Assembly: GCF_040807025.1 (NCBI RefSeq)
Contig: NC_090970.1
Coordinates: forward strand, 709,359 to 773,358
Direction: 5' to 3'
DNA: 64,000 nucleotides
DNA from: Struthio camelus
Taxonomy: Eukaryota
Shown here piece after piece: positions 4,616 to 47,889 of the stretch. Numbering within the stretch: position 1 is the first letter of the stretch; each line of letters begins with the position of its first letter. The translations under genes and the position numbers were made by a program. Below the pieces are notes generated by a model. It was not told the origin of the DNA. It searched no databases and saw only the letters and a program-made list of their open reading frames with translations.

Positions 4616-4632
4616 TCCGGGGGCAGACGCAC

Positions 4633-4801: not shown

Positions 4802-4891
4802 CTGCGCGGAGGGGCCCAGGCGTCCGGGAAGGCCCCGCAAGTTAAGCGAGGGGCGCGCGAGCACGGGGCCCAGGCGTCCGGGCGCGCTCAC

Positions 4892-4996: not shown

Positions 4997-5039
4997 CTGC
5001 CGGGAAAGGGCCCAGGCGTCCGGGTGGGGCCGAGACGGC

Positions 5040-5780: not shown

Positions 5781-5790
5781 TCCGGCTCAC

Positions 5791-13866: not shown

Positions 13867-13899
13867 CTGCCGGACGCCGGGGCCCGCTCGGACGCCGGG

Positions 13900-23020: not shown

Positions 23021-23071
23021 GAGGCCGCCGTTGCTGACGATGGCGCTGAGCGACACGGCCGTGAGCAGCAT
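22978..23071 (-). CDS. SLC12A6: SLC12A6-like exon (TM1b): MLLTAVSLSAIVSNGGLPA[EDPGVREEPRQL](G)
   Basis: Matches KCC TLLTAISMSAIATNGVVPA. Acceptor cccgttctcctcccgcag at 23072 is strong. There is no GT directly after ...GGLPA. The first strong, phase-compatible donor is CTG G|GTGAGG at 22977. Using it adds 12 residues derived from the 18-bp satellite (EDPGVREEPRQL) to the TM1-TM2 loop. The alternative is a non-canonical donor near 23014. Confidence 0.55.
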
Positions 23072-23229
23072 CTGCGGGAGGAGAACGGGAGGGGGGGGGG
23101 AGGGCCGGACGCCTGGGTCCCCCAGCGCACGCGCGGCACCCCCCCGACACGCCAACGACACGCGACTCCGCCGCCCCCCCCGCCGCAGCCCCACACACCA
23201 CCGCGCGCCCCCTCCCCACGCCAGCCGCC

Positions 23230-25110
23230 AGCCCGCCCCATATCTGGGTCCCTCCCCGGACGCCTGGGCCCCTTCGCTCCCGAACACCTGGGCCCCCGAA
23301 CCCCCTCACCCGGACGCCTGGGCCCCCCGATCAGACACCTGGGTCCCTTTCCCGGACGCCTGGGCCCCTTCCCTCCCGGACACCTGGGCCCCCTGCTGCC
23401 CTGGGCACCTGAACCCCCTCACCCAGACGCCTGGGCCCCCCGATCGGACACCTGGGCCCCTTCCCTTTCCCGGACACCTGGGCCCCTTCCCTCCCGGACG
23501 CCTGGGCCCTTCTGTCCCCCAACGCCTGAACCCCCTCACCCGGACGCCTGGGCCCCTTCCCGGACGCCTGGGCCCCTTCTGTCCCCCAACGCCTGAACCC
23601 CCTCACCCGGACGCCTGGGCCCCTTCCCCGGACGCCTGGGCCCCCGGATCAGATACCCGAGTCCCTTTCCCGGACGCCTGGGCCCCTCCCCCAGATGCCT
23701 GGACCCCCCAATCAGATACCTGAACCCCCTCACCCGGACACCTGGGCCCCCTGCCGCCCCGGACACCTGGGCCCCCCCCCCCCAAACACACACGAGGGTC
23801 CCTCTCCCGGACGCCGGGGCCCCTCCCCGTGCCGCCCGGACGCCGGGGCCCCCCGCTCTCACCCTCGGCGGCAGGACTCCCGGCCGCTCGTTACGCCCCG
23901 CGCGCGCTAACGACGGGCCGGGCTTACGCGGGCTCCCCCCCCCCCCCCGCCGGACCCATGATTCGGGCGTGACCTGAGCATGACCTTAGCGTGTCACCCC
24001 ACCCCGCGGCGTGACCTTAGCGTGTGGCCCCGCCCCGCGCCCCGCCCCGCTCACGCAGGCGCAGCACAGCAGCCCGGCGCCCAGGGCCTGCAGCAGCCCG
24101 GCCGTGCCGACCACCCAGGCCAGGCGGAGGAAGAGGACGAGGCCGAAGACGTCCTGCAGGCAGGGCAGGAAGACGCCCCGCAGCGGGCCCCGGCCCCCGG
24201 CCTGCCGCCCGGACGCCGGGGTCCGCACCCGCACGGCCTGGGCCCCCCTCTGCCTCCTCCCTCCCGCGCGCGCGCCGCGAGCCCGGACGCCTGGGCCCCT
24301 TCTCGGGCGCTCGGGTCCCTCTCCCGGACGCCTGGGCCCTTTCTCCAAAGGACTGGGTCTCTTCTCCCCGGACGCCTGGGCCCCTCCTGTCTCGTACATC
24401 GGGGCCCCATCCCCGGACACCTGGGCCCCTTCCCCCCCAGACACCTGGACCTCCTCACCCGGACGCCTGGGCCCCTTCACTCCCGGACGCCTGGGCCCCC
24501 CGATCAGACACCTGAGTCCCTTTCCCGGACACCTGGGCCCCTTCCCTCCCGGACGCCTGGGTCCCTTCACTCCCGGACTTCTGGGCCCCTTCCCCCCCCG
24601 GACGCCTGGGCCACTTCCCCCCCCCAGACGCCTGGGCCCCCCAAATAGACACCTGAGTCCCTTTCCCGGACGCCTGGGCCCCTCACCCGGACACCTGGGC
24701 CCCTTCCCTCCCGGACACCTGGGCCCCCTGCCGCCCTGGGCACCTGGATCCACACCCGGACGCCTGGGCCCCTTCGCTCCCGGATGCCTGGGAGCTTCTG
24801 TCCCCCAACGCCTGAACCCCCTCACCCGGACGCCTGGGCCCCTTCCCTCCCGGACGCCTGGGCCCCCCGATCAGATACCTGAGTCCCTTTCCCGGACGCC
24901 TGGGCCCCTCACCCGGACGCCTGGGCCCCCCGATCAGATACCTGAGTCCCTTTCCCGGACGCCTGGGCCCCTCCCCCGGACGCCTGGGCCCCTCCCCCGG
25001 ACGCCTGGGCCCCCCAATCAGATACCTGAACCCCCTCACCCGGACGCCTGGGCCCCTTCCCTCCCGGACACCTGAGTCCCCCTCCCCCACAAACACGAGG
25101 GTCCCTCCCC
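23230..25110. repeat. 18-bp satellite family with degenerate variants, spanning two introns of the SLC12A6-like gene
   Basis: Same family. It is interrupted by the exons at 24055-24201. Confidence 0.8.
24055..24201 (-). CDS. SLC12A6: SLC12A6-like exon (TM1a): [49 protein letters not shown]
   Basis: Matches KCC [46 protein letters not shown]. Donor TGC|GTGAGC. The 5' acceptor cag at 24202-24204 is phase-compatible but has a poor pyrimidine tract. The linker to the previous exon is 11 aa shorter than in KCC1/KCC3, so this boundary is uncertain. Confidence 0.6.
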
Positions 25111-25164
25111 CGGACGCCGGGGCCCCTCCCCGTGCCGCCCGGACGCCGGGGCCCCCCGCTCTCA

Positions 25165-25504: not shown

Positions 25505-25664
25505 CGGCGGCCTCGGAGGCGTCGTCGCTGCGGGTGCTCTCGGGGCCGCTGTCGCGCGAGCTGCCGGGGGGGCGGGAGCTGGAGCGCGAGCTGGGCTCCG
25601 GGCTGGACGAGGCCGAGGCCGGCGCCATCTTGGCCGGCGTCACCACGAACCGCACCGCCGCCAT
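25505..25664 (-). CDS. SLC12A6: SLC12A6-like first coding exon (KCC3a-type N-terminus): MAAVRFVVTPAKMAPASASSSPEPSSRSSSRPPGSSRDSGPESTRSDDASEAA(D)
   Basis: ATG at 25664-25662. The N-terminus resembles KCC3a, MASVRFMVTPTK...SDTSPDLSSRSSSR...RESVPETSRSE. Donor G|GTGGGT is in phase with the next exon. The exon may extend 5' to an acceptor at 25736 (tctctcctccggccgcag), with the (CAG)n/(GAG)n 5'UTR lying in the presumed intron just upstream. Confidence 0.75.
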
Positions 25665-25680
25665 GACGGACGCCGGGGAA

Positions 25681-25730
25681 GAGCAGCAGCAGCAGCAGGA
25701 GGAGGAGGAGGAAGAGGGCGGCGGCGGCGA
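25681..25730. repeat. (CAG)n(GAG)n(GGC)n microsatellite upstream of the SLC12A6-like ATG
   Basis: CAGCAGCAGCAGCAGGAGGAGGAGGAGGAAGAGGGCGGCGGCGGCG read directly. Confidence 0.9.
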
Positions 25731-25789
25731 AGGCTCCTGCGGCCGGAGGAGAGAAGCGTTAGAGGGTCGCGCCAACGTGGAGTCGCGCC

Positions 25790-27960
25790 AACGTGGCCGT
25801 CGACCCCGACCTCCATCTTGGCTCCCCGAGCCTCCATTTTAGCGCTCCTGGACCCCAATTGGGGAGCCCCGAACCTCCATTTCGCGGCCCCGAACCCCCA
25901 TTTCGCGGCCCCGAACCCCCATTTTGAACCCCCATTTCATGGTCCCGAACCTCCATTTTGGAGCCCCGAACCCCCATTTCGCGGCCCCGAACCCCCATTT
26001 TGGCGCTCCTGAACCCCCATTTCGCGGTCCCGAACCCCCATTTTGGAGCCCCAAAACCCCATTTCGCGGTCCCGACCCTCCATTTTGGCTCCCAGAGCCT
26101 CCATTTTGGCGCTCCTGAACCCCCATTTTGAACCCCCATTTCGCGGTCCCAAACCCCCATTTTGGAGCCCCAAACCCCCATTTTGGAGCCCCATTTCGCG
26201 GTCCCAAACCTCCATTTTGGCTCCCAGAGCCTCCATTTTAGCACTCCTGAACCCCCATTTCGCGGTCCCAAACCCCCATTTTGGAGCCCCAAAACCCCAT
26301 TTCGCGGTCCCGAACCTCCATTTTGGCTCCCAGAGCCTCCATTTTAGCACTCCTGAACCCCCATTTTGAACCCCCATTTCACAGTCCCAAACCCCCATTT
26401 TGGAGCCCCGAACCCCCATTTCGCGGTCCCAAACCCCCATTTTGGAGCCCCGAAACCCCATTTCGCGGTCCTGAACCTCCATTTTGGCTCCCAGAGCCTC
26501 CATTTTGGTGCTCCTGAACCCCCATTTTGAACCCCCATTTCATGGTCCTGAACCTCCATTTTAGAGCCCCAAACCCCCATTTCGCGGCCCCGAACCCCCA
26601 TTTTGGCGCTCCTGAACCCCCATTTTGAACCCCCATTTCGCGGTCCCGAACCCCCATTTTGGCGCTCCTGAACCCCCATTTTGAACCCCCATTTCGCGGT
26701 CCCGAACCCCCATTTCACGGCCCCGAACCCCACGTTGGGGCTGCCCACCCCCCTCTTTTACAGCTAACAGGCTCCGGCCCCGTTTCGGGTGGGAAAAGCC
26801 CCGTTTTGGGGGCCGACAGACTGCCGTCGGGCTCCGGCGACGCCCTCGCAGCCGCTTTGGGGGAGAAAGCGGCGTTTCGAGCGTTCGCGGAGCCCCGTTT
26901 CGGGGAGGGGGGGGGGGTTGACGCCTCGGAAGCGCCCGGGAGGGGGGCGACGCTCGTTTTGGGGAGAAACGACCCCGTTTTGGGAGCCTCGCGCTCCCCT
27001 CCTGCGACTGACAAGACGCCAACGCCCTTCCCGGGAACACCCCGCAAGGGCTGACACCCTTTTTGGGGCCCAAACGCCCCTTTTTGGGGCCCCGGCTCCC
27101 CCCCTTAGAGCTCCCATCCCACCCTGTGGCCCTCCCCACCCCCAACTTTGGGTCCAAACCCCCCCATTTTGGCTCTCAAACCCCCTTTTTGGGGACCGAC
27201 CCCCCCCAAGACCCCCATTTTAAGGTCCTACATCCTTTTCTTGAGGTCCCACCCCCCATTTTAGGGTCCCAAACCCCCATTTTGAGACCCCAAGTGCCTA
27301 TTTTGAGGCCCAAACCCCCATTTTGGGGTCCCATCCCCCCCTCTAGGCTACCGAAACCCCCCACTTTCCACCCCAAAGGCCAAATTAAGGGTCCCAACCC
27401 CTCTTTTTGGGTCCCAACTCCCCGTTTTAGGGTCCAACCCCCCATTTCAGGGGTCCCAGCCCCCCTTTAAACCACTAAAACCCCCAACGAGGAGCCCCCA
27501 GGCCCCAAATTAAGGACCCCCAACCCCCAAGTGCAGCTCCCACCCCCCCTTTTGGGGTCCCAACCCCCCATTTTAGGGTCCAACATCCCATTTTAAGGGT
27601 CCCAGCCCCCCTTTAAACCACCAAACCCCCCCAAATTAAAGACCCCAACCCCCATTTCAAGGTCCCATACCCCCATTTTGGGCCCCAAATCGCCCCTCAG
27701 AGCTCCCACCCCACCCCGGGGCGCCCCCTAACCCCCAATTTCAGCTCCCAACCCCCCATTTCGGGTCCCAAAGCCCCATTTTGGGGACTAAACCCCCCTT
27801 TCGGGGGTCCCACGCCCCCCCCCAGCACCCAAACCCCTTTAAACCACCAAACCCCCCCATTTTGGGACCCCCAACCCCTAAATAACGACCCCCAGCCCTA
27901 TTTCAAGGGGCCCAAACCCCGGTTTTGGGGTCTAAAGTTCCAATTTTGGCCCCCAAAGCC
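25790..27960. repeat. CCCCCATTTYG 12-bp-subunit satellite with a 119-bp higher-order repeat, about 2.2 kb
   Basis: ORF-track entries at 26043, 26162 and 26281 are 119 bp apart. The unit is GAACCCCCATTTCGCGGYCCC / GAACCCCCATTTTGGAGCCCC. Confidence 0.85.
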
Positions 27961-28031
27961 CCCACTCGGGACCCCCCAGGCGGGTCCCCCCCCCCCCGGT
28001 AAAGGCGGCAGCGGCCGTCGCCGACCGTTAC

Positions 28032-28090
28032 CTCAGCGCGCTGGGGGAGGGGCGGCCGCCGCCGCCGACGTCACCGCGCGCTGCGTCACC
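28032..28090 (-). other. Candidate non-coding first exon (5'UTR) of a minus-strand transcript, possibly an upstream SLC12A6 exon 1, defined by a TATA box and a GTAACG splice donor
   Basis: On the minus strand, TATAAG lies at 28121-28116, about 30 bp upstream of the exon. The exon ends ...CAGCGCGCTGAG|GTAACGGTCGG. A partial CRE (CGACGTCA) sits in the exon. A phase-free acceptor is available at 25736, just upstream of the SLC12A6-like ATG exon. Confidence 0.4.
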
Positions 28091-28200
28091 GCCCCGGCCC
28101 CGGCCGCCCCGGCCCCTTATAGCGGCGCGGCCGCGGCAGGCCCCGCCCCCCGCCCTCCCCGCGGCGTGACGTCAGGGCGGCGGCCACGCCCTCTGCGCGG
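28040..28200 (-). promoter_or_regulatory. TATA + CRE promoter in a CpG island: palindromic CRE TGACGTCA (28167-28174), TATAAG (28121-28116 on minus), CRE half-sites and GC boxes
   Basis: Motifs read directly from the sequence. The CRE lies about 50 bp upstream of the TATA box on the minus strand, with GC boxes (GGGGCGGGG) flanking. Confidence 0.5.
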
Positions 28201-28274
28201 CTGCCGCAGCGGGAGGGGCGGGGCCAGCGGGAGGGGGGCTCCGCCCACCGCGGACCACCCGGCCTCAAACTAGT

Positions 28275-31200
28275 ATGAGGGGAAGGGGGCTCCCGGACGC
28301 CTGGGCCCCTTCCCCGGACACCTGGGCCCCTTCCCCGGGCGCCTGGGCCCCTCCCCGGACGCCTGGGCCCCTTCCCCGGACACCTGGGTCCCTTCCCCGG
28401 ACACCTGGGCCCCTTCCCGGACGCCTGGGCCACTTCCCCGGACACCTGGGCCCCTCCCCCGGACACCTGGGCCCCCTCCCCGGACACCTGGGTCCCTGCC
28501 CCGGACACCTGGGCCCCTTCCCTGGACGCCTGGGCCCCTCCCCCGGACACCTGGGCCCCTCCCCGGACGCCTGGGCCCCTCCCAGACGCTTGGCCCCCTC
28601 TCCTCTGGATGCCTGGGTCCCTCCCCGGACACCTGGGTCCCTTCCCCGGACACATGCTCCCCCTTCCCGGGTGCCTGGGCTCCTCCCCCGGACTCCTGGG
28701 CCCCTCCCCGGACACCTGGGCCCCTTCCCCGGACGCCTGGGCCCCTCCCCGGACGCCTGCGTCCCTTCCCCGGACACCTGGGCCCCTCCCCGGACACCTG
28801 GGCCCCCTCCCCGGACAGCTGAGTCCCTCCCCCGGATGCTTGGGCCTCCTCCCCCGGACGCCTGGGCCCCTTCCCCGGACACCTGGGCCCCTGACCCGGA
28901 CGCCTGGGCCCTTCGCTGGACGCCTGGGCCCCTCTCAGGACGCCTGGGCCCCTCCCCGGAAGCTTGGGCCCCTTCCCGGACACCTGGGCCCCTTCCCCGG
29001 ACGCCTGGGCCCTTCCCCGGACACCTGGGCCCCTCACCCGGACACCTGGGCCCCTTCTCGGACGCCTGGGCCCCTCCCCGGACGCCTGGGCCCCTCCCCG
29101 GACGCTTGGGCCCCTTCCCCAGACATCTGGGCCCCCTTCCCCGGACACCTGGGCCCTTTCCCTGGACACCTGGGCCCCTTCCCTGGACACCTGGGCCCCT
29201 CCCCAGACACCTGGGTCCCCGCCCCGGACGCCTGGGTCCCTTCTCCTGGACGCCTGGGCCCCTCCCCCGGACGCCTGGTCCCGTTCCCCGGACACCTGGG
29301 CCCCTTCCTGGACACCTGGGTCCCTTCCCCGGACGCCTGGGCCCCTGCCCCGGACGCCTGGGCCCCCTACCCAGACACCTGGGCCCCTCCCCAGACACCA
29401 GGACCCCTCCCTGGACGCCTGGGCCCCTTTCCCGGACGCCTGGGCCCCTTCCCCGGACACCTGGGCCCCTTCCCCCGGACGCCTGGGCCCCTCCCCGGAC
29501 GCCTGGGCCCCTTCCCGGACACCTGGGCCCCTCCCCCGGACGCCTGGGCCCCTCCCCGGACGCCTGGGCCCCTTCCCGGACACCTGGGCCCCTTCCCCGG
29601 ACACCTGGGCCCCTTCCCCCGGACACCTGGGCCCCTCCCCGGACGCCTGGGCCCCTTCCCGGACACCTGGGCCCCTGCCCCGGACACCTGGGCCCCTCCC
29701 CGGACGCCTGGGCCCCTCCCCGGACGCCTGGGTCCCTTCTCCCGGACGCCTGGGCCCCTTCCCCGGACACCTGGGCCCCTTCCTGGACGCCTGGGTCCCT
29801 CCCCCGGACACCTGGGTCCCTTCCCCGGACGCCTGGGCCCCTTCCCCGGACACCTGGGCCCCTTCCGGGACACCTGGGCCCCTTCCCCGGACGCCTGGGC
29901 CCCTGCCCTGGACGCCTGGGCCCCTCCCCCGGACACCTGGGCCCCTTCCCCGGACGCCTGGGCCCCTCCCCCGGACACCTGGGCCCCTTCCCCGGACGCC
30001 TGGGCCCCTTCCCCGGACGCCTGGGCCCCTTCCCCCGGACGCCTGGGCCCCTCTCCGGACGCCTGGGCCCCTTCCCGGACACCTGGGCCCCTGCCCCGGA
30101 CACCTGGGCCCCTCCCCGGACGCCTGGGCCCCTCCCCGGACACCTGGGTCCCTTCTCCCAGACGCCTGGGTCCCTTCTCTTGGACGCCTGGGCCCCTTCC
30201 CCGGACGCCTGGTCCCCTTCCCCGGACACCTGGGCCCCTTCCTGGACACCTGGGTCCCTTCCCCGGACGCCTGGGCCCCTGCCCTGGACGCCTGGGCCCC
30301 TCCCCCGGACACCTGGGCCCCCTCCCCGGACGCCTGGGCCCCTTCCCGGACACCTGGGCCCCTGCCCCGGACACCTGGGCCCCTCCCCCGGACGCCTGGG
30401 TCCCTCCCCCGGACACCTGGGCCCCTCCCCGGACGCCTGGGTCCCTCCCCCGGACACCTGAGTCCCTCCCCGGACGCCTGGGCCCCTCCCCCGGACGCCT
30501 GGGTCCCTCCCCGGACGCCTGGGCCCCTCCCCGGACGCCTGGGCCCCTTCCCCGGACCCCTGGGCCCCTTCCCCGGACGCCTGGGCCCCTCCCCGGACGC
30601 CTGGGCCCCTTCCCCGGACCCCTGGGCCCCTTCCCCGGACGCCTGGGCCCCTCCCTGGACGCCTGGGCCCCCTCCCCGGACGCCTGGGTCCCTCCCCGGA
30701 CGCCTGGGCCCCCTCCCTGGACGCCTGGGCCCCTCCCCGGACGCCTGGGTCCCTTCCCCGGACACCTGGGCCCCTTCCCCGGATGCCTGGGCCCCTCCCC
30801 GGACGCCTGGGCCCCTTCCCGGACACCTGGGCCCCTGCCCCGGACACCTGGGCCCTTCCCCGGACGCCTGGGCCCCTCCCCCGGACGCCTGGGTCCCTCC
30901 CCGGACACCTGGGCTCCTCCCCTCCCCACCCACCCGGACACCTGGGCCCCTTTCCCTGGATGCCTGGGCCCCTTCCCCAGACGCCTGGGCCCCCTCCCCG
31001 GACACCTGGGCCCCCTTCCCCGGACGCCTGGGCCCCTCCCCGGACACCTGGGTCCCTCCCGCGGACACCTGAGTCCCTCCCTGGACGCCTGGGCCCCTCC
31101 CCGGACGCCTGGGCCCTTGCCCGGACGCCTGGGCCCCTCCCCGGACGCCTGGGCCCCTCCCCGGACACCTGGGTCCCTCCCCCGGACACCTGGGCCCCTT

Positions 31201-34200
31201 CCCCGGACGCCTGGACCCCTCCCCCGGACACCTGGGCCCCTCCCCGGACGCCTGGGCCCCTCCCCGGACGCCTGGGTCCCCTCCCTGGACACCTGGGTCC
31301 CTCCCCGGACGCCTGGGACCCTTCCCCGGACACCTGGGCCCCTTCCCAGACACCTGGGCCCCTCCCCGGACGCCTGGGCCCCTTCCCGGACACCTGGACC
31401 CCTCCCCCAGACACCTGGGCCCCCTCCCTGGACACCTGGGCCCCTCCCCGGACACCCGGGCCCCTTCCCCAGACGCCTGGGCCCCTTCCCCGGACGCCTG
31501 GGCCCCTCCCGGACGCCTGGGCCCCTCTCCCCGCACACCTGGGTCCCTCTCCCAGACGCCTGGGCCCCTTCCCGGACACCTGGGCCCCTCCCCGGACACC
31601 TGGGCCCCTCCCAGACGCTTGGGCCCCTTCCCCGGACACGTGAGTCCCTCCCCGGACGCCTGGGTCCCCTGTCCCCAGACGCCTGGGCCCCTCCCCCGGA
31701 CGCCTGGGCCCCCTCCCCGGACACCTGGGCCCCTTCCCCGGACGCCTGGGCCCCTCCTCTGGATGCCTGGGCCCCATCTCCCGGACGCCTGGGCCCCTGC
31801 CCCGGACGCCTGGGTCCCTCCCCGGACACCTGGGCCCCTCCCCGGACACCTGGGCCCCTTCCCCGGACGCCTGGGCCCCCTCCCCGGACGCCAGGGACCC
31901 TTCCCCGGACGCCAGGGACCCTTTCCCGGACACTTGGGCCCCTCCCCGGACACCTGGGCCCCTCCCCCGGACGCCTGGGCCCCTCTCCCTGCACACCTGG
32001 GCCCCTCCCCGGACGCCTGGGCCCCTTCCCGGACACCTGGACCCCTCCCCCGGACACCTGGGCCCCTCCCCGGACGCCTGGGCCCCTCCCCGGACGCCTG
32101 GGTCCCCTCCCTGGACACCTGGGTCCCTCCCCGGACGCCTGGGCCCCTTCCCCGGACACCTGGGCCCCTTCCCAGACACCTGGGCCCCTCCCCGGACGCC
32201 TGGGCCCCTTCCCGGACACCTGGACCCCTCCCCCAGACACCTGGGCCCCCTCCCTGGACACCTGGGCCCCTGCCCGGACACCCGGGCCCCTTCCCCAGAC
32301 GCCTGGGCCCCTTCCCCGGACGCCTGGGCCCCTCCCGGACGCCTGGGCCCCTCTCCCCGCACACCTGGGTCCCTCTCCCAGACGCCTGGGCCCCTTCCCG
32401 GACACCTGGGCCCCTCCCCGGACACCTGGGCCCCTCCCAGACGCTTGGGCCCCTTCCCCGGACACCTGGGCCCCCTCCCCGGACACCTGGGCCCCTTCCC
32501 CGGACGCCTGGGCCCCTCCTCTGGATGCCTGGGCCCCATCTCCCGGACGCCTGGGCCCCTGCCCCGGACGCCTGGGTCCCTCCCCGGACACCTGGGCCCC
32601 TTCCCCGGACGCCTGGGCCCCTTCCCCGGACGCCTGGGCCCCTCCCCGGACGCCAGGGACCCTTCCCCGGACGCCAGGGACCCTTTCCCGGACACTTGGG
32701 CCCCTCCCCGGACACCTGGGCCCCTCCCCCGGACGCCTGGGCCCCTCTCCCTGCACACCTGGGTCCCTTCCCCGGACACCTGGGCCCCTTCCCCGGACAC
32801 CTAGGCCCCCTCCCCAGACAGCTGAGTCCCTCCCCCAGATGCTTGGGCCTCCTCCCCCGCACGCCTGGGCCCCTGCCCCGGACACCTGGGCCCCTCCCCG
32901 GACGCCTGGCCCCCTCCCCGGACGCCTGGGCCCCTCCCCCAGACATCTGGGCCCTTTCCCTGGACACCTGGGCCCCTTCCCTGGACACCTGGGCCCCTCC
33001 CCAGACACCTGGGTCCCCGCCCCGGACGCCTGGGTCCCTTCTCCTGGACGCCTGGGCCCCTCCCCCGGACGCCTGGTCCCGTTCCCCGGACACCTGGGCC
33101 CCTTCCTGGACACCTGGGTCCCTTCCCCGGACGCCTGGGCCCCTGCCCCGGACGCCTGGGCCCCCTCCCCAGACACCTGGGCCCCTCCCCAGACACCAGG
33201 ACCCCTCCCTGGACGCCTGGGCCCCTTTCCCGGACGCCTGGGCCCCTTCCCCGGACACCTGGGCCCCTTCCCCCGGACGCCTGGGCCCCTCCCCGGACGC
33301 CTGGGCCCCTTCCCGGACACCTGGGCCCCTCCCCCGGACGCCTGGGCCCCTCCCCGGACGCCTGGGCCCCTTCCCGGACACCTGGGCCCCTTCCCCGGAC
33401 ACCTGGGCCCCTCCCCGGACGCCTGGGCCCCTCCCCGGACGCCTGGGTCCCTTCTCCCGGACGCCTGGGCCCCTTCCCCGGACACCTGGGCCCCTTCCTG
33501 GACGCCTGGGTCCCTCCCCCGGACACCTGGGTCCCTTCCCCGGACGCCTGGGCCCCTTCCCCGGACACCTGGGCCCCTTCCGGGACACCTGGGCCCCTTC
33601 CCCGGACGCCTGGGCCCCTGCCCTGGACGCCTGGGCCCCTCCCCCGGACACCTGGGCCCCTTCCCCGGACGCCTGGGCCCCTCCCCCGGACACCTGGGCC
33701 CCTTCCCCGGACGCCTGGGCCCCTTCCCCCGGACGCCTGGGCCCCTCTCCGGACGCCTGGGCCCCTTCCCGGACACCTGGGCCCCTGCCCCGGACACCTG
33801 GGCCCCTCCCCGGACGCCTGGGCCCCTCCCCGGACACCTGGGTCCCTTCTCCCAGACGCCTGGGTCCCTTCTCTTGGACGCCTGGGCCCCTTCCCCGGAC
33901 GCCTGGTCCCCTTCCCCGGACACCTGGGCCCCTTCCTGGACACCTGGGTCCCTTCCCCGGACGCCTGGGCCCCTGCCCTGGACGCCTGGGCCCCTCCCCC
34001 GGACACCTGGGCCCCCTCCCCGGACGCCTGGGCCCCTTCCCGGACACCTGGGCCCCTCCCCCGGACACCTGGGCCCCTCCCCCGGACGCCTGGGTCCCTC
34101 CCCCGGACACCTGGGCCCCTCCCCGGACGCCTGGGTCCCTCCCCCGGACACCTGAGTCCCTCCCCGGACGCCTGGGCCCCTCCCCCGGACGCCTGGGTCC

Positions 34201-37200
34201 CTCCCCGGACGCCTGGGCCCCTCCCCGGACGCCTGGGCCCCTTCCCCGGACCCCTGGGCCCCTTCCCCGGACGCCTGGGCCCCTCCCCGGACGCCTGGGC
34301 CCCTTCCCCGGACCCCTGGGCCCCTTCCCCGGACGCCTGGGCCCCTCCCTGGACGCCTGGGCCCCCTCCCCGGACGCCTGGGTCCCTCCCCGGACGCCTG
34401 GGCCCCCTCCCTGGACGCCTGGGCCCCTCCCCGGACGCCTGGGTCCCTTCCCCGGACACCTGGGCCCCTTCCCCGGATGCCTGGGCCCCTCCCCGGACGC
34501 CTGGGCCCCTTCCCGGACACCTGGGCCCCTGCCCCGGACACCTGGGCCCTTCCCCGGACGCCTGGGCCCCTCCCCCGGACGCCTGGGTCCCTCCCCGGAC
34601 ACCTGGGCTCCTCCCCTCCCCACCCACCCGGACACCTGGGCCCCTTTCCCTGGATGCCTGGGCCCCTTCCCCAGACGCCTGGGCCCCCTCCCCGGACACC
34701 TGGGCCCCCTTCCCCGGACGCCTGGGCCCCTCCCCGGACACCTGGGTCCCTCCCCCGGACACCTGAGTCCCTCCCTGGACGCCTGGGCCCCTCCCCGGAC
34801 GCCTGGGCCCTTGCCCGGACGCCTGGGCCCCTCCCCGGACGCCTGGGCCCCTCCCCGGACACCTGGGTCCCTCCCCCGGACACCTGGGCCCCTTCCCCGG
34901 ACACCTGGGCCCCTTCCCAGACACCTGGGCCCCTCCCCGGACGCCTGGGCCCCTTCCCGGACGCCTGGACCCCTCCCCCGGACACCTGGGCCCCTCCCCG
35001 GACGCCTGGGCCCCTCCCCGGACGCCTGGGTCCCCTCCCTGGACACCTGGGTCCCTCCCCGGACGCCTGGGCCCCTTCCCCGGACACCTGGGCCCCTTCC
35101 CAGACACCTGGGCCCCTCCCCGGACGCCTGGGCCCCTTCCCGGACACCTGGACCCCTCCCCCAGACACCTGGGCCCCCTCCCTGGACACCTGGGCCCCTG
35201 CCCTGACACCCGGGCCCCTTCCCCAGACGCCTGGGCCCCTTCCCCGGACGCCTGGGCCCCTCCCGGACGCCTGGGCCCCTCTCCCCGCACACCTGGGTCC
35301 CTCTCCCAGACGCCTGGGCCCCTTCCCGGACACCTGGGCCCCTCCCCGGACACCTGGGCCCCTCCCAGACGCTTGGGCCCCTTCCCCGGACACGTGAGTC
35401 CCTCCCCGGACGCCTGGGTCCCCTGTCCCCAGACGCCTGGGCCCCTCCCCCGGACGCCTGGGCCCCCTCCCCGGACACCTGGGCCCCTTCCCCGGACGCC
35501 TGGGCCCCTCCTCTGGATGCCTGGGCCCCATCTCCCGGACGCCTGGGCCCCTGCCCCGGACGCCTGGGTCCCTCCCCGGACACCTGGGCCCCTCCCCGGA
35601 CACCTGGGCCCCCTTCCCCGGACGCCTGGGCCCCCTCCCCGGACGCCAGGGACCCTTCCCCGGACGCCAGGGACCCTTTCCCGGACACTTGGGCCCCTCC
35701 CCGGACACCTGGGCCCCTCCCCCGGACGCCTGGGCCCCTCTCCCTGCACACCTGGGCCCCTCCCCGGACGCCTGGGCCCCTTCCCGGACACCTGGACCCC
35801 TCCCCCGGACACCTGGGCCCCTCCCCGGACGCCTGGGCCCCTCCCCGGACGCCTGGGTCCCCTCCCTGGACACCTGGGTCCCTCCCCGGACGCCTGGGCC
35901 CCTTCCCCGGACGCCTGGGCCCCTTCCCGGACACCTGGGCCCCTCCCCGGACACCTGGGCCCCTCCCAGACGCTTGGGCCCCTTCCCCGGACACGTGAGT
36001 CCCTCCCCAGACGCCTGGGTCCCCTGCCCCGGACGCCTGGGCCCCTCCCCCGGACGCCTGGGCCCCCTCCCCGGACACCTGGGCCCCTTCCCCGGACGCC
36101 TGGGCCCCTCCTCTGGATGCCTGGGCCCCATCTCCCGGACGCCTGGGCCCCTGCCCCGGACGCCTGGGTCCCTCCCCGGACACCTGGGCCCCTCCCCGGA
36201 CGCCTGGGCCCCTCCCCGGACGCCAGGGACCCTTCCCCGGACGCCAGGGACCCTTTCCCGGACACTTGGGCCCCTCCCCGGACACCTGGGTCCCTTCCCC
36301 GGACACCTGGGCCCCTTCCCCGGACACCTAGGCCCCCTCCCCAGACAGCTGAGTCCCTCCCCCAGATGCTTGGGCCTCCTCCCCCGCACGCCTGGGCCCC
36401 TCCCCGGACGCCTGGGCCCCTTCCCCGGACGCCTGGTCCCCTTCCCCGGACACCTGGGCCCCTTCCTGGACACCTGGGTCCCTTCCCCGGACGCCTGGGC
36501 CCCTGCCCTGGACGCCTGGGCCCCTCCCCCGGACACCTGGGCCCCCTCCCCGGACGCCTGGGCCCCTTCCCGGACACCTGGGCCCCTCCCCCGGACACCT
36601 GGGCCCCTCCCCCGGACGCCTGGGTCCCTCCCCCGGACACCTGGGCCCCTCCCCGGACGCCTGGGTCCCTCCCCCGGACACCTGAGTCCCTCCCCGGACG
36701 CCTGGGCCCCTCCCCCGGACGCCTGGGTCCCTCCCCGGACGCCTGGGCCCCTCCCCGGACGCCTGGGCCCCTTCCCCGGACCCCTGGGCCCCTTCCCCGG
36801 ACGCCTGGGCCCCTCCCCGGACGCCTGGGCCCCTTCCCCGGACCCCTGGGCCCCTTCCCCGGACGCCTGGGCCCCTCCCTGGACGCCTGGGCCCCCTCCC
36901 CGGACGCCTGGGTCCCTCCCCGGACGCCTGGGCCCCCTCCCTGGACGCCTGGGCCCCTCCCCGGACGCCTGGGTCCCTTCCCCGGACACCTGGGCCCCTT
37001 CCCCGGATGCCTGGGCCCCTCCCCGGACGCCTGGGCCCCTTCCCGGACACCTGGGCCCCTGCCCCGGACACCTGGGCCCTTCCCCGGACGCCTGGGCCCC
37101 TCCCCCGGACGCCTGGGTCCCTCCCCGGACACCTGGGCTCCTCCCCTCCCCACCCACCCGGACACCTGGGCCCCTTTCCCTGGATGCCTGGGCCCCTTCC

Positions 37201-39135
37201 CCAGACGCCTGGGCCCCCTCCCCGGACACCTGGGCCCCCTTCCCCGGACGCCTGGGCCCCTCCCCGGACACCTGGGTCCCTCCCCCGGACACCTGAGTCC
37301 CTCCCTGGACGCCTGGGCCCCTCCCCGGACGCCTGGGCCCTTGCCCGGACGCCTGGGCCCCTCCCCGGACGCCTGGGCCCCTCCCCGGACACCTGGGTCC
37401 CTCCCCCGGACACCTGGGCCCCTTCCCCGGACACCTGGGCCCCTTCCCAGACACCTGGGCCCCTCCCCGGACGCCTGGGCCCCTTCCCGGACGCCTGGAC
37501 CCCTCCCCCGGACACCTGGGCCCCTCCCCGGACGCCTGGGCCCCTCCCCGGACGCCTGGGTCCCCTCCCTGGACACCTGGGTCCCTCCCCGGACGCCTGG
37601 GACCCTTCCCCGGACACCTGGGCCCCTTCCCAGACACCTGGGCCCCTCCCCGGACGCCTGGGCCCCTTCCCGGACACCTGGACCCCTCCCCCAGACACCT
37701 GGGCCCCCTCCCTGGACACCTGGGCCCCTGCCCGGACACCCGGGCCCCTTCCCCAGACGCCTGGGCCCCTTCCCCGGACGCCTGGGCCCCTCCCGGACGC
37801 CTGGGCCCCTCTCCCCGCACACCTGGGTCCCTCTCCCAGACGCCTGGGCCCCTTCCCGGACACCTGGGCCCCTCCCCGGACACCTGGGCCCCTCCCAGAC
37901 GCTTGGGCCCCTTCCCCGGACACGTGAGTCCCTCCCCGGACGCCTGGGTCCCCTGTCCCCAGACGCCTGGGCCCCTCCCCCGGACGCCTGGGCCCCCTCC
38001 CCGGACACCTGGGCCCCTTCCCCGGACGCCTGGGCCCCATCTCCCGGACGCCTGGGCCCCTGCCCCGGACGCCTGGGTCCCTCCCCGGACACCTGGGCCC
38101 CTCCCCGGACACCTGGGCCCCTTCCCCGGACGCCTGGGCCCCCTCCCCGGACGCCAGGGACCCTTCCCCGGACGCCAGGGACCCTTTCCCGGACACTTGG
38201 GCCCCTCCCCGGACACCTGGGCCCCTCCCCCGGACGCCTGGGCCCCTCTCCCTGCACACCTGGGCCCCTCCCCGGACGCCTGGGCCCCTTCCCGGACACC
38301 TGGACCCCTCCCCCGGACACCTGGGCCCCTCCCCGGACGCCTGGGCCCCTCCCCGGACGCCTGGGTCCCCTCCCTGGACACCTGGGTCCCTCCCCGGACG
38401 CCTGGGCCCCTTCCCCGGACGCCTGGGCCCCTTCCCGGACACCTGGGCCCCTCCCCGGACACCTGGGCCCCTCCCAGACGCTTGGGCCCCTTCCCCGGAC
38501 ACGTGAGTCCCTCCCCAGACGCCTGGGTCCCCTGCCCCGGACGCCTGGGCCCCTCCCCCGGACGCCTGGGCCCCCTCCCCGGACACCTGGGCCCCTTCCC
38601 CGGACGCCTGGGCCCCTTCCCGGACACCTGGGCCCCTCCCCGGACACCTGGGCCCCTCCCAGACGCTTGGGCCCCTTCCCCGGACACGTGAGTCCCTCCC
38701 CAGACGCCTGGGTCCCCTGCCCCGGACGCCTGGGCCCCTCCCCCGGACGCCTGGGCCCCCTCCCCGGACACCTGGGCCCCTTCCCCGGACGCCTGGGCCC
38801 CTCCTCTGGATGCCTGGGCCCCATCTCCCGGACGCCTGGGCCCCTGCCCCGGACGCCTGGGTCCCTCCCCGGACACCTGGGCCCCTCCCCGGACGCCTGG
38901 GCCCCTCCCCGGACGCCAGGGACCCTTCCCCGGACGCCAGGGACCCTTTCCCGGACACTTGGGCCCCTCCCCGGACACCTGGGTCCCTTCCCCGGACACC
39001 TGGGCCCCTTCCCCGGACACCTAGGCCCCCTCCCCAGACAGCTGAGTCCCTCCCCCAGATGCTTGGGCCTCCTCCCCCGCACGCCTGGGCCCCTCCCCGG
39101 ACGCCTGGGCCCCTCCCCGGACGCCTGGGCCCCTC
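28275..39135. repeat. Major 18-bp satellite array (GGACGCCTGGGCCCCTYCCC), about 10.9 kb, about 600 units, with nested higher-order periodicities of about 2.53 kb and about 3.7 kb
   Basis: Identical long peptides recur in the ORF track at 34477 and 37007 and at 35373 and 37903 (both pairs 2530 bp apart), and at 30783 and 34477 (3694 bp apart). The array fills the interval between the CRE/TATA promoter and the NOP10 polyA site. Confidence 0.95.
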
Positions 39136-39171
39136 CCCCAGGCGCAGCCACGTGCTCTCTCTGCATCATCC

Positions 39172-39353: not shown

Positions 39354-39494
39354 TCAGAGGAGCGGGCGCGGGCGCTGCGTGAGCAGGACGCCGAAGCGGC
39401 GCTTGAGGGCCAGGCGGTGCCGCGAGAACTTGTCGTCGGGCGAGAAGCGGGCCGGGTGCGCCGAGGCCGTCTGCCGCCCGTCCGGGGCCGCCTT
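39354..39494 (-). CDS. NOP10: NOP10 (H/ACA snoRNP subunit 3) exon 2: [46 protein letters not shown]
   Basis: Matches human NOP10 [41 protein letters not shown]. Stop TGA at 39356-39354 agrees with the ORF track. Exons 1+2 give 64 aa, the same as human. The acceptor cag at 39495-39497 is phase 0. Confidence 0.9.
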
Positions 39495-39529
39495 CTGCCG
39501 CGGGCCAGCGCGCTCCACCCGCCGCCCGC

Positions 39530-40380
39530 CCCGCCGCCCCGCTACCGGGACCCCCCGGACCCGGTTCCCCCCAGACCCCGATCTGCCCCGGTCCCGTTCC
39601 CCCCCGGTCCCGGTCCCCCCCGTTCCCGGTTCCCCCCTTTTCCGGTTCCCCCCTTTTCCGGTTCCCCCCGCTCCCGGTTCCCCCCTTTTCCACTTCCCCC
39701 CGTTCCCGTTCCCCCCCCGTTCCCGTTCCCCCCTGATCCCGGTCCCCCTGGTCCCGCTCCCCCCCCGGTCCCGCTCCCCCCGGTCCCGGTTCCCCCCCGG
39801 TCCCGCTCCCCCCGGTCCCGCTCCCCCCCGGTCCCGCTCCCCCCCGGTCCCGCTCCCCCCGCTCCCGCTCCCCCCCGGTCCCGCTCCCCCCCGCTCCCGG
39901 TTCCCCCCCGCTCCCGCTCCCCCCCCCGGTCCCGCTCCCCCCCGGTCCCGGTTCCCCCCCGCTCCCGCTCCCCCCCCCGGTCCCGCTCCCCCCCCGCTCC
40001 CGGTCCCCCCGGTCCCGCTCCCCCCCGGTCCCCCCCGCTCCCGGTCCCCCCCGCTCCCCCCCCCGGTCCCGCTCCCCCCCGCTCCCGGTTCCCCCCCGGT
40101 CCCGCTCCCCCCCCGCTCCCGTTCTCCCCCCGCTCCCGTTCCCCCCCGGTCCCGTTCCCCCCCCGCTCCCGCTCCCCCCCCGCTCCCGTTCCCCCCCGCT
40201 CCCGCTCCCCCCCCGCTTCCGGTCCCCCCCGCTTCCGGTCCCCCCCCGCTCCCGCTCCCCCCCGGTCCCGCTCCCCCCCGGTCCCGCTCCCCCCCCCGGT
40301 CCCGCTCCCCCCCCCGGTCCCGCTCCCCCCCCCGCTCCCGCTCCCCCCCCGGTCCCGCTCCCCCCCCGGTCCCGCTCCGG
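39530..40380. repeat. 12-bp C-rich tandem repeat (CCCGGTCCCGCTCCCC variants) making up essentially all of NOP10 intron 1
   Basis: About 70 units. It generates a long proline-rich artefact ORF on the plus strand. Confidence 0.9.
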
Positions 40381-40383
40381 TAC

Positions 40384-40437
40384 CTGCAGCGTGTACACCC
40401 GCTCCCCCCGCTCGTTCTCGTAGAACTGCAGGAACAT
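40384..40437 (-). CDS. NOP10: NOP10 exon 1: [18 protein letters not shown]
   Basis: Matches the NOP10 N-terminus MHLMYTLGPDGKRIYTLKK. ATG at 40437-40435. Donor CAG|GTACCG. The 889-bp intron is almost pure 12-bp repeat. Confidence 0.85.
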
Positions 40438-40531
40438 GATGTCGCCGCTGCCGCCGCCGCCGCAAGGTTCGCCGGGAAGGGGGGGGCGGGGCCGCACGGC
40501 ACCCTGGGACGGCGGCGGGGCGCGGGGCACG

Positions 40532-40547
40532 CTGGGAAGTGTAGTCC
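40532..40547. promoter_or_regulatory. ZNF143/THAP11 (SBS/M8-type) motif CTGGGAAGTGTAGTCC in the NOP10 / NUT-like bidirectional CpG-island promoter
   Basis: Matches the CTGGGARNTGTAGTY consensus, i.e. ACTACAnTTCCC on the other strand. It lies about 95 bp upstream of the NOP10 ATG on the minus strand. Confidence 0.55.
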
Positions 40548-40559
40548 TGGGGAGGGGCA

Positions 40560-47735: not shown

Positions 47736-47740
47736 GGTAC

Positions 47741-47887: not shown

Positions 47888-47889
47888 CT

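What the first reader, a model, noticed from the sequence alone, without database searches (positions are those of the whole stretch)
25505..28200. TATA + CRE promoter with a GTAACG-terminated leader exon 2.3 kb upstream of the SLC12A6-like ATG exon, across a satellite
On the minus strand there is a palindromic CRE (TGACGTCA, 28167-28174). About 50 bp downstream is TATAAG, then about 60 nt ending in GAG|GTAACG at 28032. The next recognisable minus-strand acceptor in register with a gene is tctctcctccggccgcag at 25737, just 70 nt upstream of the KCC3a-type ATG. This suggests a non-coding exon 1 spliced over the CCCCCATTT satellite. Human SLC12A6 has alternative first exons, so an upstream cAMP-responsive promoter would be biologically sensible. 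The promoter could also drive an unrelated non-coding RNA.
Basis: inference. Interest (0 to 1): 0.5.

Follow-up and report, generated by a model that had tools for sequence, protein, structure and literature searches.

The report
Bird KCC3 promoter and leader exon
A 260-base unique island between two satellite arrays is most likely the promoter and non-coding first exon of a bird potassium-chloride transporter gene (SLC12A6/KCC3), spliced over a 2.3 kb repeat-filled intron to the start-codon exon. This is ordinary gene anatomy that earlier bird assemblies mostly missed.

Summary

The gene is a KCC3a-type SLC12A6. Its exon-1 peptide is 55% identical to human exon 1a, and NOP10 lies upstream as in human.

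Orthologous NOP10-SLC12A6 intervals from other birds show the same layout. GC/KLF boxes come first, then an exact CTGCGGCAGC, then a KLF box, then a C-rich stretch ending in CAG|GTA(A/C)CG. A CCCCAAAATG-type repeat follows, and then a pyrimidine tract plus AG 5-75 nt before the ATG. I read this in parrot, manakin, sparrow and woodpecker, and as variants in cuckoo.

So the leader exon and intron are supported by conservation, although I could find no transcript.

The CRE is shared only with the parrot (ACGTCACGC at the same offset). The TATA box is unique to this genome. The woodpecker donor lies 14 nt after CTGCGGCAGC, so the ancestral start site is probably upstream of the CRE and TATA.

cAMP responsiveness remains conjecture. 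I found no alternative exon 1b.

Verdict: a real but ordinary promoter and 5' leader; modest interest.

The parts
39357..40437 (-). NOP10 (two coding exons, 40437-40384 and 39497-39357), the upstream neighbour on the same strand. Poly(A) signal AATAAA at 39176-39171.
   Evidence: Sequence read.
28292..39138 (.). 10.8 kb satellite of 20-21 bp units (CCCGGACGCCTGGGCCCCTC) separating the NOP10 3' end from the island.
   Evidence: TRF, 526 copies.
28210..28291 (-). Unique upstream part of the island with two GC boxes (GGGCGG 28246-28241; CCCCGCCCC 28223-28215). No CCAAT box.
   Evidence: Sequence. Unique in the window.
28200..28209 (-). CTGCGGCAGC, the most conserved motif of the bird SLC12A6 upstream island. 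Probable start-site region of the ancestral TATA-less promoter.
   Evidence: Exact 10-mer on the gene strand of the NOP10-SLC12A6 interval in L003, L012, L013 and L014 (once per island copy; L014 has two). CTGCGGCA before a gap in L001 and variant CTGCGGCG in L002. 0.23 copies expected per 64 kb.
28182..28191 (-). GGGCGTGGCC, a KLF/Sp-type box (reverse of CCACGCCC).
   Evidence: Present at the same offset in L013, L003 and L014. Part of the local alignment with the parrot: score 31 against shuffle mean 17.1, sd 2.5, 0 of 200 shuffles reaching it.
28167..28174 (-). Palindromic CRE TGACGTCA (ACGTCACGC 28172-28164 is shared with the parrot).
   Evidence: Parrot L013 has ggcACGTCACGCggcgg at the same offset after the KLF box.
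28116..28121 (-). TATAAG, a candidate TATA box that is specific to this lineage.
   Evidence: No counterpart in L002, L003, L012, L013 or L014.
28066..28088 (-). Two further CRE-like sites: TGACGCAG 28088-28081 and TGACGTCG 28073-28066.
28032..28209 (-). Non-coding leader exon (exon 1), maximal extent. The 3' end is fixed at 28032. The 5' end (start site) lies either near 28086-28091 (TATA-directed, about 58 nt) or near 28190-28215 (GC-box-directed, about 160-180 nt). It contains no ATG.
   Evidence: Conserved donor. No ATG. The start site is inferred, not observed.
28026..28034 (-). 5' splice site GAG|GTAACG, with six contiguous matches to the consensus (AG|GTAA).
   Evidence: The same CAG|GTAACG occurs in L013 and L002, CAG|GTACCG in L003 and L014, and CAG|GTAAAG in L012. 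NOP10 intron 1 in this window uses CAG|GTACCG.
25737..28031 (-). Intron 1 (2295 nt): GT...AG, 61% GC, 65 ATGs on the gene strand.
25810..27990 (.). CAAAATGGGGGTT-type tandem repeats (gene-strand reading), interrupted by a less repetitive stretch at about 26760-27070.
   Evidence: TRF 25825-26731 and 27392-27712. Strand asymmetry: CAAAA[TC]G occurs 31 times forward and 0 times reverse.
25766..25795 (-). Two tandem CACGTTGGCGCGAC units (E2F-like TTGGCGCG) just upstream of the branch point. Candidate element of a proximal alternative promoter.
   Evidence: Numida has four TTTTTCGCGC at the same position (L011 12064-12166).
25737..25763 (-). 3' splice site: branch-point consensus CTAAC (branch A at 25759, 22 nt before the AG), pyrimidine tract cttctctcctcc, and CAG|G.
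   Evidence: It is the only acceptor with a pyrimidine fraction of 0.8 or more between the repeats and the ATG.
25505..25736 (-). Exon 2: 72-nt 5'UTR plus the ATG (25664-25662) and 53 codons plus 1 nt of KCC3a-type N-terminus (MAAVRFVVTPAK...). Donor CCG|GTGGGT follows.
   Evidence: BLASTP against human exon-1a peptide: 55% identity over 53 aa, E=1e-6. Exon frames worked out. tblastn map of downstream exons.

Best explanation
The 260-bp unique island at about 28032-28290 (minus strand) is the core promoter and non-coding first exon of the bird SLC12A6 (KCC3a-type) gene.

RNA polymerase II starts within the island. The leader ends at the GAG|GTAACG donor (28032). A 2295-nt intron filled with CAAAATGGGGG-type tandem repeats is removed using the branch point, pyrimidine tract and CAG at 25763-25737. 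The leader is thereby joined to the exon that carries 72 nt of 5'UTR and the ATG at 25664. Splicing out the intron removes 65 upstream ATGs that would otherwise block translation.

The conserved part of the promoter is of the GC-box/KLF type: GC boxes, CTGCGGCAGC, GGGCGTGGCC, and a CRE-like ACGTCACGC. This genome also has about 100 extra bases carrying a GGGGCGGGG box, a TATAAG and two more CRE-like sites. These may give a TATA-directed start near 28090 that responds to CREB/ATF.

Shown here: the motifs, their rarity in the window, gene identity and synteny, and conservation of the core motifs and the donor across bird orders.

Inferred: that transcription starts here, the exact start site, use of the 28032^25736 junction, and any cAMP response.
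For: 1. Gene identity and position.
- KCC exons map on the minus strand from 25664 down to about 575.
- The exon-1 peptide is 55% identical to human KCC3a exon 1a.
- The N-terminal model hits KCC3a-type and bird S12A6 fragments.
- NOP10 lies directly upstream on the same strand here. It does so in penguin, cuckoo, parrot and hawk-eagle too.

2. Conservation of the island.
- CTGCGGCAGC occurs on the gene strand of the NOP10-SLC12A6 interval in L003, L012, L013 and L014 (once per island copy; L014 has two). The only other hit in 15 loci is in the duck locus L005 (position 740), outside any NOP10-SLC12A6 interval.
- It is followed by GGGGCGTGGCC and, 14-178 nt on, by CAG|GTA(A/C)(C/A)G.
- Local alignment of the island with the parrot interval scores 31 against 17.1 +/- 2.5 for shuffles (0 of 200 reach it). 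With the manakin it scores 26 against 18.7 +/- 2.8 (5 of 200).

3. The donor pattern AGGTA[AC]CG is found nowhere else in these loci except at NOP10 exon-1 donors.

4. The acceptor has a canonical CTAAC branch point, pyrimidine tract and CAG|G. It is the only strong candidate after the G-rich repeat. A pyrimidine tract plus AG lies 5-75 nt before the ATG in penguin, manakin, parrot, woodpecker, sparrow, hawk-eagle and guineafowl.

5. There are no ATGs in the leader or the exon-2 5'UTR, against 65 in the intron.

6. An NCBI model for Numida (P0150) uses the acceptor 20 nt before the SLC12A6 ATG.

7. The CRE and TATA meet the sequence definition of a CRE/TATA site, that is a TATA within 300 bp downstream of a full CRE (PMC5740062).
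Against: - No transcript, CAGE or junction evidence was obtainable. The only Logan transcript contigs found with these queries were not from birds; those with a KCC3a N-terminus look mammalian, and one was read.
- The donor is only moderate: +5 C and +6 G, 6 of 9 consensus positions.
- In Neoaves the intron repeat is itself pyrimidine-rich with many AGs, so acceptor 'conservation' there is weak evidence.
- The TATA is not conserved. The CRE is conserved only with the parrot.
- Alignment scores with cuckoo, woodpecker and penguin are not above shuffles.
- Three assemblies (penguin, guineafowl, hawk-eagle) have gaps exactly over the island.
- E2F-like repeats next to the acceptor, here and in Numida, leave room for a second, proximal promoter.
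Confidence: 0.65

Rival explanations
1. Same promoter and leader exon, but transcription starts at or near CTGCGGCAGC (about 28190-28215), driven by the GC/KLF boxes as in a TATA-less CpG-island promoter. The CRE, TATAAG and the two CRE-like sites would then lie inside a 160-180-nt leader and would not form the core promoter, so the 'TATA + CRE cAMP promoter' reading would be wrong. This is a sub-model of the best explanation that differs in where transcription starts, so its probability lies largely inside the 0.65 given there.
For: - The woodpecker donor lies 14 nt after the start of CTGCGGCAGC, so at least there the start site must be upstream of the motif.
- Neoaves have CCAAT/ATTGG and multiple CCACGCCCC boxes 20-150 nt upstream of the motif and no TATA.
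- In passerines only about 70 nt separate the motif from the donor.
- The whole 259-nt island is free of ATGs.
Against: - In this genome only about 80 nt of unique sequence lie upstream of the motif before the 21-bp satellite starts, and there is no CCAAT box.
- The about 100 extra bases with a full CRE, a GC box and the only TATAA[AG] on this strand for tens of kb have the textbook spacing: CRE at about -80 and TATA at about -30 of a start near 28090.
- A woodpecker alternative donor, AAG|GTGAAT about 60 nt further on, cannot be excluded.
Confidence: 0.35
2. The ATG exon is itself a first exon, transcribed from a proximal TATA-less promoter at about 25740-25810 (the E2F-like CACGTTGGCGCGAC repeats). 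The island would then be a separate conserved element, such as an enhancer, an insulator between NOP10 and SLC12A6, or a promoter whose short transcript is not joined to SLC12A6.
For: - Mammalian exon 1a is described as the first exon and carries the ATG (PMC9301082).
- Two E2F-like sites lie 30-60 nt upstream of the putative acceptor, with four TTTTTCGCGC at the same place in Numida.
- There is no junction evidence for the leader.
Against: - The island carries a donor oriented towards SLC12A6. That donor is conserved across bird orders and occurs nowhere else in the loci apart from NOP10 exon-1 donors.
- A canonical branch point, pyrimidine tract and CAG|G sit right after the repeat.
- Only about 70 nt of non-repeat sequence are available for a proximal promoter.
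- Nothing in that stretch aligns between species.
Confidence: 0.15
3. The acceptor at 25737 is used mainly by read-through transcripts from NOP10, or the island drives an unrelated non-coding RNA.
For: The Numida NCBI model P0150 joins the NOP10 exon-1 donor to the acceptor before the SLC12A6 ATG. NOP10 and SLC12A6 are tandem on one strand.
Against: - That Numida model reads SLC12A6 exon 2 out of frame, retains an intron and spans an assembly gap, so it looks like a prediction artefact.
- NOP10 has its own AATAAA at 39176-39171, and 10.8 kb of satellite follows.
- No Rfam family matches anywhere in the window.
Confidence: 0.05

Closest known systems
Mammalian SLC12A6 exon-1a (KCC3a) promoter and first exon
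   Same: Same gene by N-terminal peptide: 55% identity to human exon 1a, including the VRFxVTP motif (RFxV, recalled from memory as a SPAK-binding site) and the SSRSSSR stretch. Same upstream neighbour, NOP10, as I recall for human 15q14; found here. Sits in a GC-rich upstream island.
   Different: In mammals exon 1a is described as the first exon and encodes 90 aa, with an alternative exon 1b and its promoter downstream (PMC9301082). Here the ATG exon appears to be exon 2, preceded by a separate non-coding leader and a repeat-filled intron. The coding part is shorter (53 codons), and no exon-1b-like sequence was found at 20-42 kb of the window (low sensitivity).
CRE/TATA class of CREB target promoters (c-fos, Nr4a1 and others)
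   Same: A full palindromic CRE with a TATA box 46 nt downstream. This meets the sequence definition used by the CREB Target Gene database, as quoted in PMC5740062. Two more CRE-like sites lie within 110 nt.
   Different: There is no evidence of CREB binding or inducibility. The TATA is absent from orthologous bird promoters, and the CRE is shared only with a parrot. The setting is an 83% GC CpG-rich island, and the start site is unknown.
TATA-less CpG-island promoters with Sp/KLF and NF-Y boxes, followed by a 5'UTR intron
   Same: The conserved core (GC boxes, CCACGCCCC/GGGGCGTGG boxes, and CCAAT/ATTGG in Neoaves) followed by a short non-coding exon and a first intron in the 5'UTR.
   Different: This genome lacks the CCAAT boxes and most of the upstream KLF-box array. 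The 21-bp satellite starts only 80 nt upstream of the core, and the genome has a TATAAG instead.

Membership tests
SLC12A6 / KCC3a 5' end | N-terminal peptide homologous to exon 1a (MASVRFMVTPTK...SSRSSSR...) | tested here: met
   BLASTP gives 55% identity over 53 aa, E=1e-6. The N-terminal model hits KCC3a-type fragments P0001/P0005 and bird 'S12A6' fragments.
SLC12A6 / KCC3a 5' end | Synteny: NOP10 immediately upstream on the same strand | tested here: met
   NOP10 exons at 40437-40384 and 39497-39357. The same order occurs in L001, L002, L013 and L016. The human arrangement is from my own knowledge.
SLC12A6 / KCC3a 5' end | Rest of a K-Cl cotransporter gene downstream on the same strand | tested here: met
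SLC12A6 / KCC3a 5' end | Alternative exon 1b (MPHFTVTK...) with its own promoter | tested here: not met
   No credible tblastn match at 20-42 kb of the window. Intron 2 here is only about 95 nt. The test has low sensitivity because this bird gene is very divergent.
U2-type GT-AG intron in the 5'UTR (non-coding exon 1) | 5' splice site resembling MAG|GTRAGT | tested here: met
   GAG|GTAACG matches 6 of 9 positions, contiguous over AG|GTAA. NOP10 intron 1 in the same window uses CAG|GTACCG.
U2-type GT-AG intron in the 5'UTR (non-coding exon 1) | Branch point, pyrimidine tract and YAG at the 3' end | tested here: met
   CTAAC with the branch A 22 nt before the AG, cttctctcctcc, and CAG|G.
U2-type GT-AG intron in the 5'UTR (non-coding exon 1) | Both splice sites conserved at orthologous positions | tested here: met
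   Donor conserved in L002, L003, L012, L013 and L014. Acceptors precede the ATG in L001, L003, L011, L012, L013, L014 and L016. Caveat: the Neoaves repeats are pyrimidine-rich, so those acceptors are weak evidence.
U2-type GT-AG intron in the 5'UTR (non-coding exon 1) | Spliced junction observed in RNA | not testable with these tools
   No bird SLC12A6 transcript contigs were returned. There is no RNA-seq access.
CRE/TATA (cAMP-responsive) Pol II promoter | [quoted passage not shown] | tested here: met
   CRE 28174-28167 and TATAAG 28121-28116. Definition quoted in PMC5740062.
CRE/TATA (cAMP-responsive) Pol II promoter | CRE conserved between species | tested here: inconclusive
   ACGTCACGC sits at the same offset in the parrot. 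It is absent at that position in sparrow, manakin, cuckoo and woodpecker. The manakin has a full CRE about 80 nt upstream of the core.
CRE/TATA (cAMP-responsive) Pol II promoter | TATA box conserved and about 30 nt upstream of the start site | tested here: not met
   There is no TATAA[AG] in the islands of L002, L003, L012, L013 or L014. The start site in this genome is unknown.
CRE/TATA (cAMP-responsive) Pol II promoter | CREB/CRTC occupancy and induction by cAMP | not testable with these tools
   Needs ChIP and reporter assays.

The most novel reading that the evidence does not exclude
In birds the KCC3a 5'UTR is split by an intron that in every lineage examined is filled with a strand-asymmetric CCCCAAAA(T)G / TTTTCCCC-type tandem repeat. 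That arrangement would have been kept since the deep splits among modern birds, which would make the repeat a functional part of SLC12A6 regulation, for example a factor-binding array or a transcription-pausing element. In this genome's lineage, satellite invasion upstream would have removed most of the ancestral CCAAT/KLF TATA-less promoter, and a newly arisen CRE + GC-box + TATA module would have taken over start-site selection. That would be promoter turnover from a housekeeping type to an inducible type.
Probability: 0.15. Interest if true: 0.5.

Novelty: new member of a known kind. Interest (0 to 1): 0.3.

Why it matters
Bird SLC12A6 lies in a very GC-rich, satellite-laden region. Most assemblies break exactly at its promoter: penguin, guineafowl and hawk-eagle all have gaps there. 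The few gene models found are fragments or chimeras.

Defining the leader exon, donor, acceptor and conserved core motifs gives annotators a template for the true 5' end of the gene in birds. It also shows a promoter architecture that differs from the mammalian description of exon 1a as the first exon.

Beyond annotation, the finding is routine promoter and 5'UTR anatomy. The cAMP-inducibility idea is testable but has no support yet.

Tried and rejected
- **Rfam:** a scan of the whole window found no family, so the island is not a known small-RNA gene.
- **Self-BLAST of the island:** only low-complexity GC matches, so it is not a repeat or LTR copy.
- **Exact look-up of the window's NOP10 protein:** not in the collection, so the species was not identified. 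The best NOP10 relative is a tinamou at 88%.
- **NOP10-anchored loci from duck, zebra finch and Penelope:** no KCC exon within 10 kb downstream, or the contig ends. These were not usable. This agrees with a preprint that lists SLC12A6 as not found in the finch.
- **Global MAFFT alignments** of the islands and of the ATG-exon flanks were uninformative in this low-complexity sequence. I replaced them with motif-anchored comparison and Smith-Waterman alignment with shuffles.
- **A mammal-like KCC3a transcript contig from Logan (L015):** it has about 800 nt upstream of the ATG, but I saw no resemblance to the bird leader and had no genome to place its exons.
- **Exon 1b search:** negative.
- **Second copies** of CTGCGGCAGC and GGGCGTGGCC near 590-720 of the window are coding or intronic chance matches inside a distal KCC exon region.
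- **A CTCF-like reading** of GCGCAGAGGGCGTGG was considered but not tested, because no matrix is available here.
Full report
**Observation**

- TGACGTCA at 28174-28167.
- TATAAG at 28121-28116.
- GAG|GTAACG with the exon ending at 28032.
- Acceptor ...ctctaacgcttctctcctccggccgcag|GAGCC with the exon starting at 25736.
- ATG at 25664-25662, 72 nt further on.
- CCCCCATTT-type tandem repeats in between (TRF 25825-26731 and 27392-27712).

The CRE alone is not significant: 0.48 copies are expected per window, and 37 of 100 shuffles have at least one. The ensemble is unusual.
- Four CRE half-sites fall in 160 bp, which 0.3% of windows reach.
- This is the only TATAA[AG] on this strand outside an AT-richer satellite at 6-9 kb.
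- The pattern AGGTA[AC]CG occurs only twice on this strand. The other copy is the NOP10 exon-1 donor, which protein homology confirms.
- The island at 27990-28300 is unique in the window, and no Rfam family matches.

**What the gene is**

The window is 60-80% GC and mostly tandem repeats, which looks like a bird microchromosome.

I worked out the first four exons from the sequence.

Exon 1 (coding) gives MAAVRFVVTPAKMAPASASSSPEPSSRSSSRPPGSSRDSGPESTRSDDASEAA. It is 55% identical to the human KCC3a exon-1a peptide.

NOP10 lies upstream on the same strand (40437-40384 and 39497-39357), with AATAAA at 39176-39171. A 10.8 kb satellite of 21-bp units (28292-39138) separates it from the island.

Database searches with the N-terminus returned partial 'S12A6' fragments from several birds. 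Their contigs show the same NOP9-NOP10-SLC12A6 order.

**Comparative test of the island**

I read the NOP10-to-ATG interval in:
- Eudyptes (L001),
- Piaya (L002),
- Lepidothrix (L003),
- Numida (L011),
- Melanerpes (L012),
- Probosciger (L013),
- Passer (L014),
- Spizaetus (L016)

.

Wherever the assembly is not gapped, the same layout appears on the gene strand:
- several CCACGCCCC/GC boxes, plus CCAAT/ATTGG in Neoaves;
- the exact 10-mer CTGCGGCAGC;
- GGGGCGTGGCC;
- a C-rich stretch ending in CAG|GTA(A/C)(C/A)G;
- then, within a few tens of bases, a CCCCAAAA(T)G-type repeat.

The 10-mer occurs on the gene strand of this interval in L003, L012, L013 and L014 (once per island copy; L014 has two). 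The only other hit in 15 loci is in the duck locus L005, outside any NOP10-SLC12A6 interval. It is CTGCGGCA followed by a gap in the penguin and CTGCGGCG in the cuckoo. In the window it sits at 28209-28200, where 0.23 copies are expected by chance.

The distance from the motif to the exon end is 178 nt here, 104 in parrot, 98 in cuckoo, 72 and 71 in manakin and sparrow, and 14 in woodpecker.

Local alignment of the island against the parrot interval scores 31, against 17.1 +/- 2.5 for dinucleotide shuffles (0 of 200 reach it). Against the manakin it scores 26, against 18.7 +/- 2.8 (5 of 200). The other three species are not above shuffles.

The donor pattern is absent from the rest of these loci except at NOP10 exon-1 donors. 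I take this as good evidence that the island is a constrained promoter-plus-leader unit with a real 5' splice site facing SLC12A6.

**The acceptor and the intron**

In the window the repeat is G-rich on the gene strand, so pyrimidine tracts are rare. After the repeat, the only strong candidate is the site at 25737. It has a textbook CTAAC branch point (branch A 22 nt upstream), the tract cttctctcctcc, and CAG|G.

Three weaker candidates lie in the less repetitive middle of the intron (26953, 26925, 26855). None has an obvious matching donor.

All other birds have a pyrimidine tract plus AG 5-75 nt before the ATG. In Neoaves, however, the repeat is itself TTTTCCCC-rich, so this counts for little there.

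The spliced 5'UTR (leader plus 72 nt) has no ATG, whereas the intron has 65.

An NCBI model for Numida (P0150) uses the acceptor 20 nt before the ATG. It joins that acceptor to NOP10 exon 1 across an assembly gap, reads the exon out of frame, and retains an intron. It is at best a hint that an intron ends there.

**CRE, TATA and the start site**

The parrot has ggcACGTCACGCggcgg at the same offset after the KLF box as the window's ctgACGTCACGCcgcgg. The CRE core may therefore be old.
- Passerines, cuckoo and woodpecker lack it there.
- The manakin has a full CRE about 80 nt upstream instead.
- No other bird has a TATA box in the island.

Relative to passerines, the window has about 100 extra bases between the KLF box and the C-rich pre-donor stretch. 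These bases hold the CRE, a GGGGCGGGG box, TATAAG, TGACGCAG and TGACGTCG.

In the woodpecker the donor follows CTGCGGCAGC by 14 nt, so its start site must be upstream of the motif. The Neoaves CCAAT and KLF boxes upstream fit a TATA-less start near the motif.

In this genome only 80 nt of unique sequence remain upstream of the motif before the satellite, with no CCAAT box. Two models therefore stand:
- a GC-box-directed start near 28190-28215 (leader about 160-180 nt), with the CRE and TATA inside the exon.

The sequence meets the CRE/TATA definition used for CREB targets (PMC5740062). That is a sequence criterion only.

**Rivals**

A proximal promoter at the ATG exon cannot be excluded.
- Two E2F-like CACGTTGGCGCGAC units lie just upstream of the branch point, and Numida has four TTTTTCGCGC at the same place.
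- Mammalian exon 1a is described as a first exon (PMC9301082).
- Against it are the conserved, correctly oriented donor and the canonical acceptor.

NOP10 read-through, or an unrelated RNA, is unlikely given NOP10's own poly(A) signal and 10.8 kb of satellite.

**Comparison with what is known, and novelty**

This is the 5' end of a known gene, and the mechanism (promoter, non-coding exon 1, 5'UTR intron) is standard.
- It differs from the mammalian description in that the ATG exon is not first.
- I found no exon 1b.
- It is not an additional alternative promoter in the 1a/1b sense.

A preprint places SLC12A6 in a bird microchromosomal block and notes it was not found in the finch. That matches my zebra-finch loci, which lack it.

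I file this as a new member of a known kind, of modest interest.

**Limits**

There is no RNA evidence. The species is unidentified. Three of the eight comparison assemblies are gapped at the island.

Noticed in passing
window 25810-27990; L001 7700-9900, L002 9060-9760, L012 8900-9960, L013 6060-7660, L014 6000-9930, L016 7850-9680, L011 11519-12180: Intron 1 of SLC12A6 carries a strand-asymmetric CCCCAAAA(T)G / TTTTCCCC-type tandem repeat in every bird examined. For example, CAAAA[TC]G occurs 31 times forward and 0 reverse in the window, 15/4 in woodpecker and 9/0 in penguin. The repeat units differ between lineages, but the position and orientation are kept.
   Followed up: partly
L014 8290-8340 and 9950-10003; L003 9960-10003; L016 9700-9758; L001 9920-9995: In Neoaves the 5'UTR just before the SLC12A6 ATG holds TGAC(G/C)TCA repeats. 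The sparrow has three perfect CREs 20 nt apart, the last overlapping the ATG. They look like remnants of the GTG-GTG-ACG-CC codons (VVTP) of the MAAVRFVVTP N-terminus. That N-terminus is intact in this window and in Numida but not in Neoaves, so the RFxV motif (recalled from memory as a SPAK-binding site) may have been lost in Neoaves.
   Followed up: partly
window 25766-25795 (minus); L011 12064-12166: E2F-like repeats lie immediately upstream of the exon-2 acceptor: two CACGTTGGCGCGAC here and four TTTTTCGCGC in the guineafowl. This is a possible proximal promoter or intronic regulatory element.
   Followed up: partly
L014 4160-4380 and 5780-5995; 8280-8560 and 9940-10230: In the tree sparrow contig the promoter island and the ATG exon each occur twice in near-identical copies. 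This is either a tandem duplication or an assembly artefact.
   Followed up: no
window 16640-17421, 41764-42680, 61087-62167: Tandem arrays whose units contain GGCGGCCATCTTGGC / CCAAGATGGCCGCC, which resembles the YY1 consensus as I recall it. They occur in three separate places, one of them inside an SLC12A6 intron.
   Followed up: no
window 2530-5785 (+ orientation GGGGCCCAGGCGTCCGGGGAA) versus 13870-16376, 22279-25131, 28292-39138 (CCGGACGCCTGGGCCCCTCC): The same 20-21 bp satellite fills several SLC12A6 introns and the NOP10-SLC12A6 spacer. One block (2530-5785) is inverted relative to the others.
   Followed up: no
window 40520-40550 (minus): The NOP10 upstream region contains GGACTACACTTCCCAGCGTGC, which resembles the ZNF143/SBS motif as I recall it. 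Numida has GGACTACGACTCCCAGCAGCC at the equivalent place.
   Followed up: no
window 62560-63540 (minus); 55706-58420 and 47495-48349 (minus): Other genes upstream. One is a RING-finger ORF (MAVCEDLLLCNYRKCRAKLAGYAWVTACSHIFC...; Pfam zf-RING_5, E=8e-8) that resembles CCNB1IP1/HEI10 from memory. Another is a set of TPR-containing exons (Pfam TPR, E about 5e-5), possibly TTC5. Both are embedded in 31-bp and 155-175-bp tandem repeats.
   Followed up: partly
L011 10001-12858 (Numida meleagris LOC110391520, P0150): This public gene model is a chimera. It joins NOP10 exon 1 across an assembly gap to SLC12A6 exon 2 read in the wrong frame, and it has a retained intron.
   Followed up: yes
L015 1-802: A mammal-like KCC3a transcript contig from Logan has about 800 nt upstream of the ATG. 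Its 5' end is GC-rich, and a pyrimidine tract plus CAG lies about 105 nt before the ATG. Some mammalian KCC3a transcripts may therefore also have upstream non-coding exons or retained intron.
   Followed up: no
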